A DNA stretch of 64,000 nt from the NCBI GenBank assembly GCA_016176525.1, contig JACOWZ010000003.1, forward strand, positions 459,357-523,356, read 5' to 3'. This DNA is from Candidatus Colwellbacteria bacterium (GTDB taxonomy: Bacteria > Patescibacteriota > Minisyncoccia > UBA6257 > Colwellbacteraceae). Position numbers and translations under genes: made by a program. Numbering within the stretch: the stretch's first letter is position 1; each line of letters starts with the position of its first letter. Below, piece by piece: positions 6,116 to 55,458 of the stretch. The notes under the pieces were generated by a model. That model did not search any database. It had not been told where the DNA came from and worked only from the letters and a program-made list of their open reading frames with translations.

Positions 6116-7203
6116 GGAGGACTGGAAAAATAGATTATTTGATTTTAGTGGCAGTTTTTTTGCTAATCGCCTTGGGTTTTTTGTTTCTAGCCTCTGCCTC
6201 ATCTGACTTAGGTAAGGTAAGGTTTGACAATGCATATTATTATATTTGGCGGCAGATTATATATGGAGCATCTGTTGGCTTAGTGGGCTTTTTTCTTGCA
6301 CTTAAAATTCCATACAAGAACCTAAAGCCTTACACATTTTATCTTCTTATCGCGAGTGTTGGATTGGTTGCACTTACTTTTACGCCACTTGGAATTGTAC
6401 TTGGTGGGGCTAGGCGCTGGTTGCAATTTGGCCCTTTTGTTTTTCAGCCTGCCGAGATTTTAAAATTTACTTTTATAATGTATCTGGCTGCGTGGCTTAG
6501 CAGTGAAAGAAAAAATCGCTCTAAAAGTTTTTATAACGGCTTTTTGCCGTTTATAGTTCTCTCCGGTACTATAGGCGGACTCTTGCTTCTACAGAGGTCA
6601 ACAAGCGCGGTTCTTATAACTATGCTCTCTGCGCTCTGCGTTTATTTTATAAGCGGCGCAAAATGGAGATATATTTTAGCGGTGTTCGGCTTAGGCGCGC
6701 TTGTGTTGCCTTTAGTAATTTATTTTACCCCATATAGATTAGAGAGAGTTCTTACTTTTCTTGACCCTGCACAAGATACATCAGGCGCAAGTTATCAGAT
6801 AGATAGGGCAAAAGTGACAATAGGTTCTGGTGGCTTTCTTGGAGTTGGATATGGTAATTCGGTAACCAAGCAATATTTGCCGGAGCGCATAGGGGACTCA
6901 ATTTTTGCGATAATTGCAGAAGAATTCGGCTTTGTAGGGGCGAGTTCTCTTATCCTTTTATATTCAGTTCTTGTTTTGCGCGGACTTATGGTTGCAAAAA
7001 ATATTGGAGAGCCCTTTGGCAGGCTTTTACTCGCAGGTATATCTATTATTATAGGTTTGCAAGCTTTTACGCATATTGGCGCTATATCTGGGGTAATACC
7101 CCTAACTGGTGTGCCGCTGCCGTTTATAAGCTATGGAGGCACTGCCCTTGCGGTGTTTATGATCGCTGCTGGGCTTATGTTAAATGTGACGAAGAGGGGG
7201 TAG
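6112..7203 (+). CDS. ftsW: SEDS-family cell division protein FtsW/RodA (peptidoglycan glycosyltransferase)
   Basis: 10-TM profile and the GARRWLQFGPFVFQPAEILK block typical of FtsW; sits next to murG. Confidence 0.8.
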   Translation: MRRTGKIDYLILVAVFLLIALGFLFLASASSDLGKVRFDNAYYYIWRQIIYGASVGLVGFFLALKIPYKNLKPYTFYLLIASVGLVALTFTPLGIVLGGARRWLQFGPFVFQPAEILKFTFIMYLAAWLSSERKNRSKSFYNGFLPFIVLSGTIGGLLLLQRSTSAVLITMLSALCVYFISGAKWRYILAVFGLGALVLPLVIYFTPYRLERVLTFLDPAQDTSGASYQIDRAKVTIGSGGFLGVGYGNSVTKQYLPERIGDSIFAIIAEEFGFVGASSLILLYSVLVLRGLMVAKNIGEPFGRLLLAGISIIIGLQAFTHIGAISGVIPLTGVPLPFISYGGTALAVFMIAAGLMLNVTKRG

Positions 7204-7210
7204 TTGCTTT

Positions 7211-7328
7211 CACCACCCACCCATACTCTACAAGTCACCGGCGTAATCCGCCGGCTGGCGGATTCGCCTTCTTCTCGCGCCGTCGCGCTCCGAAAATGAC
7301 TTTACGAGCATGGCTGGGCGGCTCATTA
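7211..7328 (+). repeat. copy 1 of a roughly 115-nt structured intergenic repeat (long imperfect outer inverted repeat enclosing two hairpins)
   Basis: shares the core AGTCACCGGCGTAA...CGCCTTCTTCTCGCGCCGTCGCGCTCCGAAAATGACT with the copies at 15357, 19243 and 54590; starts 8 nt after the ftsW stop. Confidence 0.8.
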
Positions 7329-7372
7329 AATCAACCTTTCTTTATTACACATTACCAATTACAATTTACTAA

Positions 7373-11494: not shown

Positions 11495-11522
11495 TTGACA
11501 AACTTTTAAAAGAAGGTATAAT
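11495..11522 (+). promoter_or_regulatory. consensus sigma-70-like promoter (TTGACA-N16-TATAAT)
   Basis: exact TTGACA at 11495-11500 and exact TATAAT at 11517-11522; the GC-rich non-coding locus starts 2-7 nt downstream. Confidence 0.7.
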
Positions 11523-11523
11523 A

Positions 11524-12045
11524 GGGGACACTTATAAAGTTCTTTAGTATACCTAATTCGCAGCAGAAAAGAAGAGAGGATAGTATACGAATTACGACAC
11601 TTTGACTAGATAAATGAATTTACGAAATTGTCTTTTCTTTCCTGCTGCGGACAGGTTCTGTCTAGGGCGCATGGGTAACTAATCCCATCGCAAGCATCCT
11701 AGACAGGAATGTTTTTAAGACATCATAGCGAGCCGAGCGCGCTTTGGAGGGTTTCTAGAACTCTCTGGAGAAACAAGTACTCTGGCCTGATGGAATTGCG
11801 GGCTTTTGCGAGCCTGCGAAACCAATATCAAGGGATGTGATGTCGCCTGGGTGAACCGTAACGCCCTTGGTTACCCCAAACCCACGCTCGCGAAAAATTG
11901 CGAGTGTGGGATAGATCTTAATAGCCCCGTGGAGAGTTCTGTCTGTAAGTGCTTGCGCCGTGCATCCCAAATGACGGGCAGGTGGGGGTGCAGACAGACA
12001 GAATATCCCGGGGCACTTTACTTTTTATATAGTGTCAGAAAAGAT
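11524..12045 (+). ncRNA. candidate large structured non-coding RNA (about 520 nt) of unknown class
   Basis: no credible ORF on either strand; visibly higher GC than flanks; many hairpins including G-U pairs that only work on the + strand (GCGGGC/GCCUGC; CGCUCGC/GCGAGUG); 5' end GACACUUAUAAAG can pair with the 3' end CUUUUUAUAUAGUGUC. Confidence 0.5.
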
Positions 12046-12131
12046 ATATTGTGCGACGCTATATATTTTAAAAAGAAGATACTCCCCTGTGCAGATTTAT
12101 ATATTTATATAGGTTTGGTTTTAGCATATAA

Positions 12132-12899
12132 TTGTTTGTAATGCTAAAAAACGGCAATGGTGCAGCCAATTTTAAAGAATCTCACGGATATATTATTGAT
12201 GGAGTTTGGTATCCTAGAGTTACTAGTATTGTAAATATTAAAGCTAAGCCGGCCTTATATCGCTTTTATGGCTCGGTTCAGAGCTTTGCAGAGGGTGAAG
12301 CGATTAAAAACCGCTCTGCCGAAGAAGGCACTCTTATTCACGAAGCTGTGCAGAATTTTATGGTTGGCAAAGCTGTGTCGCCGGACCCGCGCACAGAGCC
12401 CTCTATAAAGGCATTAAAATCGTTTTTAGAGGCAAAGCATATCCAGTTTGTGCCGGAATGGATTGAGAGGCGTATTTTAAGCTTCAAAGAGAGATATGCC
12501 GGCACAATTGACGCACTGGCTTTAATAGACGGCAAATTCGGCGTTTTAGACATTAAAACCTCGCAAGAGATATATCGTGATTTCAATCTGCAAACTGCGG
12601 CTTATTTTGACGCGCTAAACGAAAGTGTTGAAGGACTCCAAACCCGCTGGATTTTACGCATAGACCAAGTACAGATGTGTTTAAGTTGCGGTGCAAAGCG
12701 GCGCATAAAGGGTGGCAGAGAGAAAATTCGCAACAATGGTGTTTATTGTAGGCATAATGAATGGTCGGAGGTTGTAGGCCAAGTTGAGTTAAAGGAATTC
12801 CCCCACTGGGCTGATGATTACCGTGCGTTTTTAGCGGCTAAAAAGTTGTGGGAGTGGGAAAACGAGAATTATTTAAAAGCTATTGGATATTTACGCTAA
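12132..12899 (+). CDS. PD-(D/E)xK nuclease superfamily protein (Cas4/RecB-like)
   Basis: D...D.K core (GTIDALALIDGKFGVLDIKTS) and a C-terminal Cys cluster (CLSC...C). Confidence 0.55.
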   Translation: MFVMLKNGNGAANFKESHGYIIDGVWYPRVTSIVNIKAKPALYRFYGSVQSFAEGEAIKNRSAEEGTLIHEAVQNFMVGKAVSPDPRTEPSIKALKSFLEAKHIQFVPEWIERRILSFKERYAGTIDALALIDGKFGVLDIKTSQEIYRDFNLQTAAYFDALNESVEGLQTRWILRIDQVQMCLSCGAKRRIKGGREKIRNNGVYCRHNEWSEVVGQVELKEFPHWADDYRAFLAAKKLWEWENENYLKAIGYLR

Positions 12900-15079: not shown

Positions 15080-15352
15080 ATGGCACATACAAAATCTGGT
15101 GGTTCAACAAAATTAGGTAGAGATTCACGGGCACAACGGCTAGGTGTAAAGGTTTATGACGGCGAGCCGATTAGCGCCGGAGAAATTATATTGCGCCAGA
15201 GAGGAACTAAGGTTATCCCGGGAACGAATGTTAGGCGCGCCGGCGACGACACTCTCTATGCCGCAAAGCAGGGCACAGTAAAATTCTTCTCAAAAAAGAA
15301 AACTCGTTTCGACGGCAACCGCCGCTACATTAAAGTTGTTTCTGTAGTCTAA
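15080..15352 (+). CDS. rpmA: 50S ribosomal protein bL27
   Basis: [23 protein letters not shown]...RQRGTK.IPG. Confidence 0.9.
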
Positions 15353-15356
15353 TAAC

Positions 15357-15470
15357 TCACCAAACCCACAGTATCTCGAGTCACCGGCGTAAAATTCTTG
15401 CTGAATTTTCGCCTTCTTCTCGCGCCGTCACGCTCCGAAAATGACTCTCGACACAATGGGTTTGGTTCGT
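15357..15470 (+). repeat. copy 2 of the structured intergenic repeat
   Basis: about 95% identical to copy 4 and shares the core with copies 1 and 3; starts 5 nt after the rpmA stop, in a convergent gap before rplI. Confidence 0.8.
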
Positions 15471-15476
15471 AAAAGA

Positions 15477-15917
15477 TTAGGCCGAGACTACCTCTATTTT
15501 AACTTCTCCTACTACTCCCCTGCCTAGGTTTAATATAATTCTGTGAGTTCCGGTTGTTTTTATGTGGCCTTCTGGGAATTCTACTTCTGCGTTTTCCAGA
15601 CCAAACTTTGTGAGTCTATCTTTTATTTCTATATCTCTAATTGAGGCGAATAATTTGCCCTTATCCCCTACCTTTACTTTTATAACTATGGGTTTATTTT
15701 TTGTTTCTTCTTCTAGGGTTTTAAGTTTTGTGCGTAGTTCTTCTACCTCTTTATTAATTACCTCGCGCATATTAGCCACTTCTTTTAGCGCTGCACTGGT
15801 TGCGGGTTTAGCTAAACCTTTAGGTATCAGAAAATTTCTAGCATAACCGTCAGATACATTCTTAATGTCGTTAATTCTTCCAACTCCCTTTATATCTTTT
15901 TGTAATACTACTTTCAT
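15477..15917 (-). CDS. rplI: 50S ribosomal protein bL9
   Basis: [28 protein letters not shown]. Confidence 0.9.
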
Positions 15918-19220: not shown

Positions 19221-19242
19221 TATCTTACGTTTGTCTGCTTCG

Positions 19243-19358
19243 CCATCCAGCCATACTCTACAAGTCACCGGCATAAAATTCTTACTGAATTTTTGCCTTT
19301 TTCTCGCCTTGTCAGGCTCCGAAGATGACTTTACGAGCATGGCTGGGCGGCTCATTAA
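19243..19358 (+). repeat. copy 3 of the structured intergenic repeat
   Basis: same outer arms as copy 1 (CCATACTCTACAAGTCA ... TGACTTTACGAGCATGGCTGGGCGG); both internal hairpins present with covarying stems; lies between def and fmt. Confidence 0.8.
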
Positions 19359-19387
19359 CTTTTACGAACTCTGATATAATCTTTGTT

Positions 19388-27396: not shown

Positions 27397-27498
27397 ATGT
27401 TTTTATTTGATTTTTAATTATAAATCACAAGTTTATTTTAGGCAACGTTTTTATAAAGAATATAAAAAAATAGCTCCGAATTGGAATTCGGAGCTGTA

Positions 27499-27574
27499 AC
27501 GCGAGCGGAAGGATTTGAACCTTCGGGTTCCAGTCTCCGGTAGACTGGCGTCTTGCCAAGCTAGACTACGCCCG
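27499..27574 (-). tRNA. tRNA with non-canonical anticodon arm (CCG-containing loop; would read CGG/Arg if a CCG anticodon is used)
   Basis: manual cloverleaf: acceptor GCGGGCG/CGCUCGC, D-stem GUCU/AGAC, T-arm GAAGG-UUCAAAU-CCUUC; the anticodon arm CCAGU-CUACCGGAG-ACUGG is 19 nt, either a 9-nt loop or a 7-bp stem with a 5-nt loop; CCA not encoded. Confidence 0.7.
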
Positions 27575-28112
27575 CAAAGAGCTCCAGGCACGCTTAGGAG
27601 GGAGGGATATTTCGGGGTAAGTGTGCCCTGGAGCTGGGTTATGTTTTAATGTGCACCCCTTCGTGCGGTTCAAGCCGGTTTGGCTCGTTTGATGGTTGTC
27701 ACTTGATTGTCTGCTGTTTGGGTTGTTAACCAAGGGGGTTTCCAGAGAAACTCCCATTTTGTTTGAGACAATACCTGGACAATCGCATGCACGCACGAAG
27801 GGGGTTGTTCCACTTAAGGAACTTCGTCCTATCGACACCGGCTTGTCGCCGAGTGTATTTTACGTCGCTCGGACGAATGAGCGAACAACTCTAGCTTTGT
27901 TGGCATCCGCCAACACCTTTTCCCGAGTCAATACTCGGTACTTTTGCGTATTCCAGAGAAGACCATGCTAGGCGGCTTGTCTTCTCTCCGATCTCGTAGT
28001 ACGTAGTCCATCTGGTTTGGTGCTTTTACCGTTTCTCGATGGAGTAGAAACAGTAGCGAGCCCTTTACGGCTCACATTCAATTTATATCATAAAGCCCAA
28101 TTTATGGCAAAT
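27575..28112 (-). ncRNA. candidate structured non-coding region (about 540 nt) directly 5' of the tRNA on the same strand; class unknown
   Basis: no plausible ORF; elevated GC; 12-bp stem AGCTCCAGGCAC/GTGCCCTGGAGCT and many further hairpins; strand uncertain. Confidence 0.35.
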
Positions 28113-39672: not shown

Positions 39673-39737
39673 AAGACTTTATTTTAACATTGCTTGCGTT
39701 TAATGCATAAATATGGTAAATATAGCGCGCAGGTAAT

Positions 39738-40098
39738 TCAGGTAATAGCTCTGCAAACTTCCGTAATTTTAACCGAAAAGACAGCTCTTTCCAAAGGCGA
39801 GTTTGTAGGGAGGAAAGTCCGGACACCTAGCAACAAGTACAGGTTAACGGCCTGCCGCAGTAATGCGAGAGGTGCGAACAGTGACGCCCCGTGGCGAAAG
39901 CTTATGGGGGAGCCCTATCTCAAGCTAGTCGGCTCAATTCGGTGATAGAGATAAAAAAGCCGAAGTGAAACGTTTCTAAATCCTTACCGGGTGCAAGACC
40001 GTGCTCCGATAAACATCGGAGAGAGTCGCTAGAGCCCGCGAGTAATCTCGGGCCCAGATAAATTGTTGCCAAATACAGAATCCGGCTTATGAATTACC
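39738..40098 (+). ncRNA. rnpB: RNase P RNA (bacterial type A)
   Basis: GGAGGAAAGUCCGGAC (P4 5' strand), ACAGAAUCCGGCUUA (P4 3' strand), P1 pairing AGGUAAUUCA/UGAAUUACCU. Confidence 0.85.
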
Positions 40099-40107
40099 TG
40101 CATATAA

Positions 40108-54535: not shown

Positions 54536-54589
54536 AGTACGCGAATTATAGCATATGTGCTATATTTAACATAATTTGGTTGTTTGAGG

Positions 54590-54702
54590 CTCCCCAAACC
54601 CACAGTATCTCGAGTCACCGGCGTAAAATTCTTACTGAATTTTCGCCTTTTTCTCGCACCGTCGTGCTCCGAAGATGACTCTCGACACAATGGGTTCGGT
54701 TC
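54590..54702 (+). repeat. copy 4 of the structured intergenic repeat
   Basis: about 95% identical to copy 2; ends 4 nt from the map stop but on the opposite strand. Confidence 0.8.
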
Positions 54703-54705
54703 GCT

Positions 54706-55458
54706 TTATTCCGTAACCACTCTGCTGCCTTTTTCTGTAATCAATATTGTGTGCTCAAAATGAGCGGAGGGGCTGTTGTCGGCTGTTGCGAAGCTGTCGT
54801 CCGGCAGTTGGACAATTCTGCCGGTGCTAATAGATGTCATCGGTTCTATGGCAAGCACCATTCCGGGTCTTAACTTAATGCCTGCGCCGGGCTTGCCAAA
54901 GTTGTAAATTACAGGCTCTTCGTGAATTTCTATGCCCACGCCGTGGCCCGTTAAGCCTTCTATTATGTGGAATCCTTTATTAGATATTGTGCGTTCTATT
55001 GCAAAGCCTATATCACCCAAGGTTTTGCCCGGCTTTGCGGCACGTATCGCTTCCACAAGCGCTCTTTTTGTTGTGCTTATAAGGTCTAGGTTTTTTGCCG
55101 TAACTTTGCCTATAGGCACGGTTACTGCAGCGTCTGTTATGCCACCCTGCCAATCTACACCTATGTCTATTTTTAAGACATCGCCGGATTTTAAGAAATA
55201 TTTTTTAGGCACGCCGTGCACTACAACCTCGTTTACGGATGCACAAATACTTGCTGGAAATGGAACTTTAGCTCCGTACGGCCTATAGCCTAAAAAAGCT
55301 GGCTTTGCACCCAACTCTTTTATCTGCTTATGTGCCATGTTATCCAGACTAATCAGATCTATACCTTCTTTTGCGGCATTCTTAAGACTTTTTAGTACAG
55401 CAGAGAGAATTTTGCCGGATTTTTCGATTTTCTCTATTTGTTTTTCTGTTTTTATCAT
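54706..55458 (-). CDS. map: type I methionine aminopeptidase
   Basis: pita-bread fold blocks; HGVGIEIHEEP. Confidence 0.9.
   Translation of the reverse strand: MIKTEKQIEKIEKSGKILSAVLKSLKNAAKEGIDLISLDNMAHKQIKELGAKPAFLGYRPYGAKVPFPASICASVNEVVVHGVPKKYFLKSGDVLKIDIGVDWQGGITDAAVTVPIGKVTAKNLDLISTTKRALVEAIRAAKPGKTLGDIGFAIERTISNKGFHIIEGLTGHGVGIEIHEEPVIYNFGKPGAGIKLRPGMVLAIEPMTSISTGRIVQLPDDSFATADNSPSAHFEHTILITEKGSRVVTE

What the first reader, a model, noticed from the sequence alone, without database searches (positions are those of the whole stretch)
27499..28112. tRNA with a 2-nt-expanded anticodon arm, preceded on the same strand by about 540 nt of structured non-coding sequence
The minus-strand tRNA folds into a normal cloverleaf except for the anticodon arm. 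It reads CCAGU-CUACCGGAG-ACUGG, 19 nt instead of 17, giving either a 9-nt loop or a 7-bp stem with a 5-nt loop. Expanded anticodon loops are the hallmark of frameshift-suppressor or recoding tRNAs. Alternatively this is a pseudo-tRNA or attachment-site remnant. The 540 nt immediately upstream on the same strand have no ORF, elevated GC and many hairpins, including a 12-bp stem AGCUCCAGGCAC/GUGCCCUGGAGCU. Large ornate ncRNAs such as GOLLD and ROOL are often adjacent to tRNA genes and mobile DNA, and this locus opens an accessory island. I could not assign the region to tmRNA, SRP RNA or a group I intron by eye.
Basis: seen in the sequence. Interest (0 to 1): 0.6.

Follow-up and report, generated by a model that had tools for sequence, protein, structure and literature searches.

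The report
Odd tRNA-Arg behind an orphan structured RNA
In a tiny-genome groundwater bacterium (Candidatus Colwellbacteria), a well-formed arginine tRNA with a 2-nt-longer anticodon arm sits directly behind about 500 nt of strongly folding, gene-free sequence that matches no known RNA or protein; both features are real, but with no relatives found their function stays unproven.

Summary
On the minus strand, 27575-27500 is a solid tRNA (ARAGORN tRNA-Arg(CCG); Rfam 51.9 bits). Its anticodon arm is 19 nt, CCAGU-CUACCGGAG-ACUGG. It is identical in a second assembly. The 536 nt upstream have no credible ORF, are GC-enriched, and fold far better than shuffles (z -6.4 to -6.7; rank 2 of 238 same-size genomic windows).

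The arm also fits a third reading: a 6-bp stem with a normal 7-nt loop, UACCGGA, with CCG centred and A33. CGG is an ordinary in-frame Arg codon here, including the invariant R of PilB's LRQDPD motif. No CGGU or CCGGU recoding site exists in the window. Frameshift suppression is therefore unlikely.

The tRNA also has C20 where A20, the Arg identity element, is expected. All 120 tRNA-Arg(CCG) genes pulled from metagenomes have 7-nt loops.

The upstream RNA matches no Rfam family (E<=10), so it is not tmRNA, GOLLD, ROOL or an intron. No homologue turned up in any collection searched. A promoter (TTGCCA-17-TGaTATAAA) and a terminator bracket one ncRNA-tRNA unit.

Best model: one transcript, cut by RNase P into a roughly 500-nt orphan RNA and an atypical CGG-reading tRNA. 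Confidence is moderate to low.

The parts
28082..28110 (-). Sigma-70-type promoter candidate: -35 TTGCCA (28110-28105), 17-nt spacer, extended -10 TGaTATAAA (28090-28082). Predicted start is near 28075.
   Evidence: One of only 17 sites in both strands of the window with at least 5/6 plus 5/6 matches. Same layout as the sequence upstream of the RNase P RNA gene, TTGCGT-17-TGgTAAATA, and similar to the promoter of the neighbouring 143-aa gene. Inferred only; no transcript data.
27577..28075 (-). About 499-nt orphan structured RNA (candidate ncRNA or long tRNA leader).
   Evidence: MFE -179 kcal/mol, z -6.42, 0 of 100 shuffles as good. No Rfam hit at E<=10. No protein homologue in any of six frames. 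No DNA match in phages or plasmids.
28027..28075 (-). Two 5'-terminal hairpins: GUGAGCC/GGCUCGC (28075-28056) and a 10-bp hairpin (28055-28027).
   Evidence: MFE and centroid structures.
27898..27987 (-). Three perfect hairpins: 9 bp (27987-27955), 6 bp (27938-27923) and 7 bp (27915-27898).
   Evidence: The segment 27917-27884 is also partly complementary to the 5' half of the tRNA, but only weakly significant (4 of 200 shuffles as good).
27656..27803 (-). 3' domain closed by a perfect 12-bp long-range helix, CCCCUUCGUGCG (27803-27792) / CGCACGAAGGGG (27667-27656). It encloses nested helices and A/C-rich linkers.
   Evidence: Present in both MFE and centroid.
27580..27635 (-). 3'-terminal 12-bp hairpin with one bulged G and a C-rich loop (CCCUCCCUCCU), ending 4 nt before tRNA position 1.
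27500..27575 (-). tRNA, nominally Arg(CCG). The discriminator G is at 27500 and no CCA is encoded.
   Evidence: ARAGORN. Rfam tRNA 51.9 bits. Cloverleaf MFE -32.8 kcal/mol.
27530..27548 (-). 19-nt anticodon arm CCAGU-CUACCGGAG-ACUGG; CCG is at 27540-27538.
   Evidence: Identical in L001.
27465..27495 (-). Intrinsic terminator: 10-bp stem AGCUCCGAAU/AUUCGGAGCU followed by AUUUUUUU.

Best explanation
The locus is a two-product non-coding transcription unit in a Candidatus Colwellbacteria (Patescibacteria) genome.

A sigma-70-type promoter at 28110-28082 starts a primary transcript of about 600 nt, and the intrinsic terminator at 27495-27465 ends it. RNase P, whose RNA gene lies in the same window at 39730-40104, cuts at the 5' end of the tRNA. 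That cut releases two products:

1. A roughly 500-nt, highly structured RNA restricted to this lineage. Both its ends are closed by stable hairpins. Its role is unknown.
2. An atypical tRNA that most likely still serves as this organism's decoder of the rare Arg codon CGG. It would read triplets, with the arm adopting either a 6-bp stem and 7-nt loop (U32-A33-CCG-G37-A38) or a 9-nt loop.

Shown directly: the tRNA fold, the 19-nt arm, the absence of coding potential, the strong folding, the terminator, and the in-frame use of CGG.

Inferred only: the promoter and start site, co-transcription, RNase P release of a stable upstream RNA, and aminoacylation and decoding by the tRNA.
For: - tRNA calls and canonical tertiary nucleotides.
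- Identical sequence in a second assembly.
- A terminator immediately 3' of the tRNA, and no promoter-like site between the structured region and the tRNA.
- A good promoter at the 5' edge that resembles the RNase P RNA promoter.
- Folding z -6.4 to -6.7, rank 2 of 238 genomic windows.
- GC enrichment in a compact genome with a median intergenic gap of 52 nt.
- No Rfam, protein or DNA homologue.
- 51 in-frame CGG codons in 59 genes, including the invariant Arg of PilB LRQDPD.
- No frameshift-requiring sites.
- Natural tRNAs with 6-bp anticodon stems (tRNAPyl, mt-tRNASer-UCN) and with an 8-nt loop that still reads triplets (yeast mt-tRNAThr1) are functional (PMC7609411).
Against: - No homologue of the 500-nt region was found, so there is no covariation or conservation evidence that it is a functional RNA.
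- Its helices are almost all perfect Watson-Crick pairs, and a G.U strand test is neutral.
- It has no GNRA or UNCG tetraloops, seen by eye.
- The tRNA has C20 where all eight bacterial tRNA-Arg(CCG) genes compared have A20, the major ArgRS identity element in E. coli (established knowledge).
- The tRNA would have A33 instead of the near-universal U33 in the 7-nt-loop reading.
- None of 120 metagenomic tRNA-Arg(CCG) genes has such an arm. No species representative in GTDB matched the loop pattern searched, CTACCGGAG followed 12-14 nt later by GGTTCRAATCC; a relative with a different T-loop would have been missed.
- I could not inspect the rest of the 645-kb contig for a second CGG decoder.
- There are no expression data.
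Confidence: 0.4

Rival explanations
1. The tRNA is functional, but the 500 nt are not an independent RNA gene. They are only a long, incidentally structured 5' leader, or the decayed remnant of inserted DNA such as an old mobile element or intron-like insertion of the kind common in CPR genomes. They are tolerated next to the tRNA and discarded after RNase P processing.
For: - No homologue anywhere searched.
- The helices are near-perfect inverted repeats that fold equally on both strands: 103 shared pairs, G.U test neutral.
- No stable tetraloop motifs.
- Flanking gene order is not conserved in relatives.
- In 200-nt windows the region is only in the top 2-5% of the genome.
Against: - A streamlined genome (median intergenic gap 52 nt) rarely keeps 500 nt of junk.
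- GC is raised to the level of the RNase P RNA, as expected for selected structure in an AT-rich genome.
- There is a well-placed strong promoter, and hairpins close both ends.
- No repeats, terminal inverted repeats or protein-gene remnants.
Confidence: 0.27
2. The tRNA-like element does not decode on the ribosome. It could be a recently disabled pseudo-tRNA. It could instead be a tRNA-shaped module serving as an RNase P processing handle for the upstream RNA (like mascRNA behind MALAT1), as a decoy for an anticodon nuclease, or as an amino-acid donor outside translation.
For: - C20 instead of the Arg identity element A20.
- The anticodon arm departs from the 5-bp/7-nt/U33 rule.
- Such an arm was absent from 120 metagenomic tRNA-Arg(CCG) genes and from the pattern scan of GTDB representatives.
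- It sits 4 nt after the terminal hairpin of a large RNA.
Against: - Every other stem and tertiary position is intact.
- CGG codons need a decoder, and CPR genomes usually carry single-copy tRNAs (general knowledge).
- CCG, G37 and A38 are exactly as in normal tRNA-Arg(CCG).
Confidence: 0.22
3. The tRNA is a natural quadruplet or quintuplet decoder, or +1 frameshift suppressor. It would use a 9-nt loop with anticodon ACCG or ACCGG to read CGGU or CCGGU at programmed recoding sites.
For: - A 9-nt loop with canonical flanks, CU-ACCGG-AG, is a possible reading.
- Expanded loops are what classical frameshift suppressors (8 nt) and engineered five-base decoders (9 nt) carry (PMC7803779 and PMC9094744; engineered five-base decoders from my own knowledge).
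- In-frame CGG-U is somewhat rare: 4 observed against about 9 expected, not significant.
Against: - No ORF pair in 64 kb is rescued by a +1 shift at CGGU or CGGN or a +2 shift at CCGGU. The hits are gene starts or overlapping distinct genes.
- 51 CGG codons are read in frame.
- The extra 3' G pairs with C32 and restores a 7-nt loop.
- The loop pattern searched was not found in any other GTDB representative genome.
Confidence: 0.04
4. The 2-nt expansion is an assembly or sequencing artefact, or a minor population variant.
For: The genome is a metagenome-assembled genome. Both assemblies probably derive from the same read set.
Against: - Two different assemblers give identical sequence over the whole locus.
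- The change is two separate single-base insertions outside homopolymers, and they preserve pairing.
Confidence: 0.03

Closest known systems
Canonical bacterial tRNA-Arg(CCG)
   Same: Cloverleaf, CCG followed by G37-A38, discriminator G73, 5-nt variable loop, standard T and D tertiary nucleotides.
   Different: One extra nucleotide on each side of the anticodon, giving a 19-nt arm. It has A33 or a 9-nt loop. It has C20 instead of A20 and a G4.U69 pair.
Frameshift-suppressor tRNAs (sufD, sufA6/SufB2) and engineered four- and five-base decoders
   Same: An anticodon loop larger than 7 nt is a possible conformation.
   Different: The classical suppressors have 8-nt loops from a single insertion. 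Here a second insertion can re-pair and restore a 7-nt loop. No recoding targets were found, and CGG is a normal codon.
Yeast mitochondrial tRNA-Thr1(UAG) with an 8-nt loop; tRNAPyl and mt-tRNASer(UCN) with 6-bp anticodon stems (PMC7609411)
   Same: Natural, active tRNAs that break the 5-bp/7-nt rule yet read triplets. This is the precedent for the favoured model.
   Different: In tRNAPyl and mt-tRNASer the sixth pair uses positions 26/44 and the variable loop is shortened, so the arm is not physically longer. Here G26 and a 5-nt variable loop are kept, and the extra pair lies on the loop side.
MALAT1-mascRNA / MEN-beta (3'-end formation by RNase P at a downstream tRNA-like structure)
   Same: A large structured RNA immediately followed by a tRNA-shaped element that RNase P would cut, leaving a hairpin-protected 3' end.
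   Different: Those are eukaryotic nuclear lncRNAs, and the tRNA-like part there is not a decoder. Processing here is inferred, not shown.
GOLLD and ROOL large ornate RNAs
   Same: Size class of about 500-800 nt, many hairpins, adjacent to a tRNA gene.
   Different: No covariance-model match at E<=10. No phage or mobile context. No detectable family members. No GNRA-rich ornate architecture.

Membership tests
tRNA (Rfam RF00005) | Cloverleaf scoring above the family's gathering score; called by a tRNA finder | tested here: met
   51.9 bits against a gathering score of 29. ARAGORN tRNA-Arg(CCG).
tRNA (canonical elongator) | 5-bp anticodon stem, 7-nt loop, U33 | tested here: not met
   The arm is 19 nt. 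It is either 5 bp with a 9-nt loop, 6 bp with a 7-nt loop and A33, or 7 bp with a 5-nt loop.
tRNA-Arg (ArgRS substrate) | C35 and G36/U36 in the anticodon | tested here: met
   CCG lies at 27540-27538, centred in the 7-nt-loop reading.
tRNA-Arg (ArgRS substrate) | A20 in the D-loop (major identity element in E. coli and T. thermophilus) | tested here: not met
   The D-loop is AGCUUGGCA, so position 20 is C. All eight comparison tRNA-Arg(CCG) genes have GGAUA. Whether the Colwellbacteria ArgRS needs A20 is unknown.
Frameshift-suppressor / quadruplet-decoding tRNA | Expanded anticodon loop | tested here: inconclusive
   A 9-nt loop is possible, but the C-G closing pair gives a normal 7-nt loop.
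Frameshift-suppressor / quadruplet-decoding tRNA | Cognate recoding sites in genes | tested here: not met
   No credible CGGU/CGGN (+1) or CCGGU (+2) site joins ORFs in 64 kb. The rest of the genome was not available.
GOLLD / ROOL / OLE / HEARO and other Rfam large RNAs | Match to the family covariance model | tested here: not met
   No match in 27577-28112 on either strand at E<=10 or at gathering scores.
tmRNA | tRNA-like domain plus tag reading frame, detected by ARAGORN or Rfam | tested here: not met
   ARAGORN -m finds nothing even with thresholds lowered to 80%. No Rfam tmRNA hit. The tRNA has a full anticodon arm.
Group I / group II intron, SRP RNA, 6S RNA, RNase P RNA | Match to the family covariance model | tested here: not met
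   No hits at E<=10. RNase P RNA is elsewhere, at 39730-40104.
Protein-coding gene or pseudogene | ORF or detectable homology in some frame | tested here: not met
   The longest ORFs are 90-91 aa. A six-frame concatenated query against 5.8 billion proteins gave no hit at E<=1e-3.
RNase P-released upstream RNA (MALAT1-mascRNA-like) | tRNA-shaped element directly 3' of the RNA; cleavage by RNase P yields the mature 3' end | not testable with these tools
   The arrangement is met: a 4-nt linker between hairpin and tRNA. Cleavage and stability need RNA end-mapping.

The most novel reading that the evidence does not exclude
The ~500-nt region is a new, Colwellbacteria-restricted class of large structured RNA. 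Its 3' end would be made by RNase P cutting at a co-transcribed tRNA, a bacterial counterpart of MALAT1-mascRNA. The attached tRNA, with a 9-nt or A33 loop and C20, would have been partly or wholly co-opted for that role or for non-standard decoding. This would be one of several unrecognised structured RNAs in this genome.
Probability: 0.12. Interest if true: 0.75.

Novelty: new variant of a known kind. Interest (0 to 1): 0.45.

Why it matters
Patescibacteria (CPR) have tiny genomes and poorly known RNA biology. A tRNA that breaks the 5-bp/7-nt/U33 rule yet may be the only reader of an in-use codon would extend what a bacterial ribosome and ArgRS are known to tolerate in nature. That is relevant to codon-expansion engineering.

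A promoter-driven, terminator-bounded ~500-nt structured RNA with no relatives deserves notice in a genome that otherwise wastes almost no sequence. So do a second ~600-nt orphan and a 4-copy ~110-nt structured repeat in the same window. Together they suggest CPR lineages hold unexplored non-coding RNA families. The claim is limited by the lack of comparative or expression data.

Tried and rejected
1. Known RNA family. Rfam at gathering scores and at E<=10 found only the tRNA. ARAGORN tmRNA mode at lowered thresholds found nothing.

2. Hidden protein or pseudogene. Six-frame translations against 5.8 billion proteins gave nothing.

3. Phage or plasmid origin. blastn in distant mode gave no match.

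4. Repeat or template repeat, MITE or DGR-like. No second copy exists in the window.

5. Synteny route to homologues. I examined neighbourhoods for six homologues of the upstream PCC-domain protein and three homologues of the downstream 143-aa protein. None has the RNA or a tRNA there.

6. Pattern scans.
- The loop-plus-T-loop pattern in GTDB genomes gave 7 chance hits, none a homologous tRNA.
- My metagenome pattern was too permissive. It filled its quota with ordinary, mostly archaeal, tRNA-Arg(CCG) genes. That was useful only as a control set of 120 normal loops.
- Viral scans: one 20-mer hit five contigs, but within a phage DNA-polymerase gene, so it is a chance match.

7. Anti-Shine-Dalgarno regulator idea, prompted by the CCUCC-rich loop. 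Rejected because this genome almost lacks SD motifs: about 4 of 59 genes have one, and many starts sit right after a TATAAT box.

8. The leader sequestering the tRNA. The segment 27917-27884 pairs with the 5' half of the tRNA in the full-transcript MFE, but 4 of 200 shuffles do as well and the test was post hoc. Kept only as a weak lead.

9. Strand assignment by G.U pairs. Neutral.

10. Frameshift targets. None found.

Full report
Source and context. The upstream protein's database name places the window in a metagenome-assembled Candidatus Colwellbacteria genome (Patescibacteria/CPR), on a 644,793-nt contig. The genome is compact. The median gap between ORFs in the window is 52 nt and GC is 0.417. 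On one side of the locus lie type IV pilus genes (PilB/T2SSE, T2SSF, pseudopilins), a DUF192 gene and small secreted proteins. On the other side lie a PCC/PPC DNA-binding protein, a DUF167 gene and an alpha/beta hydrolase. Nothing nearby looks like phage or mobile DNA.

The tRNA. ARAGORN reports tRNA-Arg(CCG) at 27499-27576 on the minus strand. Rfam's tRNA model scores 51.9 bits at 27575-27500, placing 7 nucleotides where the model has 5. From the sequence the parts are:
- acceptor stem GCGGGCG/CGCUCGC, with G4.U69
- U8 and A9
- D-stem GUCU/AGAC with loop AGCUUGGCA
- G26
- anticodon stem CCAGU/ACUGG with CUACCGGAG between the strands
- variable loop AACCC
- T-arm GAAGG-UUCAAAU-CCUUC
- discriminator G, with no encoded CCA (the window's tRNA-Gln also lacks one)

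All conserved tertiary positions are present, so this is not a decayed sequence. The locus is base-for-base identical in an independent Logan assembly of run SRR12113430.

The 19-nt arm has three readings:
- 5 bp with a 9-nt loop
- 7 bp with a 5-nt loop, which is the thermodynamic optimum
- 6 bp with a 7-nt loop

In that reading the loop is U-A-C-C-G-G-A, so CCG is centred and followed by G37-A38 exactly as in normal tRNA-Arg(CCG), but A replaces the near-universal U33. Relative to normal tRNA-Arg(CCG) genes there is one extra A before the anticodon and one extra G after A38, and that G can pair with C32.

How unusual the tRNA is. A scan of one genome per GTDB species for CTACCGGAG followed at the right distance by a T-loop returned 7 hits, about the chance expectation. 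None was a homologous tRNA. A metagenome scan built to catch tRNA-Arg(CCG) genes with the same D-stem, whatever the loop size, returned 120 genes before hitting its limit. These were mostly archaeal with some bacterial, and all had 7-nt loops. The eight bacterial-type sequences I aligned all have A20 in the D-loop, while the window tRNA has C20. A20 is the major ArgRS identity element in E. coli and Thermus (established knowledge). Its absence is a second departure from a textbook tRNA-Arg.

Is it a recoding tRNA? In 59 non-overlapping long ORFs, CGG occurs 51 times in frame, or 3.1 per 1000 codons. One CGG encodes the invariant Arg of the LRQDPD motif of the PilB/T2SSE ATPase. The organism therefore reads CGG as an ordinary Arg triplet and needs a decoder for it. 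I scanned both strands for CGGU or CGGN sites where a +1 shift would join two long ORFs, and for CCGGU or CGGUN sites where a +2 shift would. The only hits were gene starts or overlaps of clearly different genes, for example a DEAD-box helicase with an ABC-F ATPase. CGG-U is not significantly avoided: 4 observed against about 9 expected. Natural tRNAs with 6-bp anticodon stems (tRNAPyl, mt-tRNASer-UCN) and with an 8-nt loop (yeast mt-tRNAThr1) read triplets (PMC7609411). I rate programmed quadruplet or quintuplet decoding as unlikely, about 0.04. An atypical but working CGG reader is the most likely role. A non-decoding role remains a real alternative because of C20 and A33. I could not reach the rest of the contig to see whether a canonical CGG decoder exists, and that is the single most informative missing fact.

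The upstream 536 nt.
- Coding potential. No ORF exceeds 91 aa and none looks protein-like. A query made of all six translated frames found nothing at E<=1e-3 among 5.8 billion proteins.
- Composition. GC is 0.49-0.56 against 0.32-0.44 nearby, similar to the RNase P RNA gene at 0.49.
- Folding. The minus strand folds to -186.2 kcal/mol, z -6.66. The plus strand folds to -199.7 kcal/mol, z -5.93. In both cases 0 of 100 shuffles fold as well.
- Genome background. Among 238 same-length windows, after regressing MFE on GC, the region ranks 2nd on the minus strand. In 200-nt windows, which cut the long-range helix, it lies in the top 2-5%.
- Predicted architecture. Two 5' hairpins are followed by three perfect hairpins of 6-9 bp. 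A 150-nt domain is closed by a perfect 12-bp helix (27803-27792 with 27667-27656).

Transcription unit. At the 5' edge sits TTGCCA, 17 nt, then TGaTATAAA (28110-28082). It is one of only 17 sites in 128 kb of both strands that match both hexamers at 5/6 or better. It has the same form as the sequence upstream of the RNase P RNA gene, TTGCGT-17-TGgTAAATA. No promoter-like site lies between it and the tRNA. A strong intrinsic terminator follows the tRNA (27495-27472 plus a U tract). The next gene has its own promoter. The simplest reading is one transcript of about 600 nt, from which RNase P would release a roughly 499-nt RNA with hairpins at both ends, plus the tRNA. This is inference; there are no expression data. 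The strand rests on the promoter, the terminator and the tRNA orientation. A test based on G.U pairs versus A.C mismatches inside shared helices was neutral, with four on each strand.

What the RNA is not. It matches no Rfam family on either strand at E<=10. That rules out tmRNA (also ARAGORN), SRP RNA, 6S RNA, group I and II introns, and GOLLD, ROOL, OLE and HEARO. It has no match in phage or plasmid collections and no second copy in the window.

Search for relatives. All routes failed. The neighbouring PCC-domain protein and 143-aa protein have homologues at 50-66% identity in other Patescibacteria, but in different gene contexts and without the RNA or a tRNA. Exact-pattern scans with four RNA segments in viral contigs gave nothing or a chance hit inside a phage polymerase gene. 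There is therefore no covariation evidence. This keeps my confidence that the region is a functional RNA gene, rather than a structured leader or a remnant, at roughly even odds.

Functional ideas tested.
- Anti-Shine-Dalgarno regulator, prompted by the C-rich loop CCCUCCCUCCU. This is not tenable, because almost no gene in the window has an SD motif and many start codons sit just after a TATAAT box, which implies leaderless or short-leader mRNAs.
- The leader sequestering the tRNA. When the whole transcript is folded, 27917-27884 pairs with the 5' half of the tRNA at 27 positions instead of letting the cloverleaf form. However, 4 of 200 shuffled leaders and 5 of 256 genomic pieces pair as well. 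I note it only as a weak lead.

Comparison with known systems. As a tRNA it is a member of the tRNA family but fails the canonical anticodon-arm rule and one Arg identity feature. It works most like the rare natural tRNAs that tolerate altered anticodon arms while reading triplets. As a locus, a large RNA followed by a tRNA most resembles the MALAT1-mascRNA arrangement, or the tRNA-adjacent GOLLD and ROOL RNAs. It is not a member of those RNA families, since the membership tests failed.

Verdict. The tRNA is a new variant of a known kind. The upstream RNA is an orphan candidate whose status cannot be settled without homologues or transcript data. Interest is 0.45. The most novel reading still open is a new large RNA class matured by RNase P at a co-opted tRNA, at probability about 0.12.

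Noticed in passing
window 7195-7345, 15342-15492, 19225-19375, 54576-54726 (minus strand): Four copies of a ~110-nt intergenic element. On the minus strand, these are the most stably folding 200-nt windows of the whole 64 kb after GC regression (z -3.4 to -4.4). Their consensus structure has 36 pairs, 12 with compensatory double changes, and invariant U.G pairs that would be C.A on the plus strand. No Rfam match. This is a candidate new small structured RNA family.
   Followed up: partly
window 11495-12131 (+): A second large orphan. A perfect TTGACA-16-TATAAT promoter at 11495-11522 is followed by about 600 nt with no credible ORF. MFE is -242.8 kcal/mol, z -7.85. It is the best-folding 536-nt region on the plus strand and has no Rfam hit. 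A PD-(D/E)XK nuclease gene (12132-12899) lies directly downstream.
   Followed up: partly
window, 22 nt upstream of 59 long ORFs: Shine-Dalgarno motifs are almost absent; about 4 of 59 genes have GGAG, GAGG or AGGA. Many start codons lie 5-12 nt after a TATAAT-like box, which suggests widespread leaderless or very short-leader mRNAs in this Colwellbacteria genome.
   Followed up: no
window 27884-27917 versus 27539-27572 (minus strand): A segment of the upstream RNA is complementary to the tRNA's D-arm and the 5' side of its anticodon arm, pairing at 27 positions. It replaces the cloverleaf in the MFE of the full transcript. This is only marginally better than shuffles, with 4 of 200 as good.
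   Followed up: yes
window 39730-40104 (+): The RNase P RNA (bacterial type A) scores only 125 bits against a gathering score of 100. It has a ~38-nt insertion in the first hairpin and a shortened 3' region, a divergent CPR-style version.
   Followed up: no
L013 1968-2050 (Nonomuraea roseoviolacea tRNA cluster): A tRNA-shaped sequence lies between called tRNA-Glu and tRNA-Asn genes. It has normal acceptor, D and T arms but an irregular, enlarged anticodon region containing CUACCGGAG. ARAGORN does not call it.
   Followed up: no
L010 2736-6805 (Blastocatellia MAG contig): A dense array of 34 tRNA genes in about 4 kb. Several have anticodon positions shifted to 37-39, which resembles phage or mobile tRNA arrays.
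   Followed up: no
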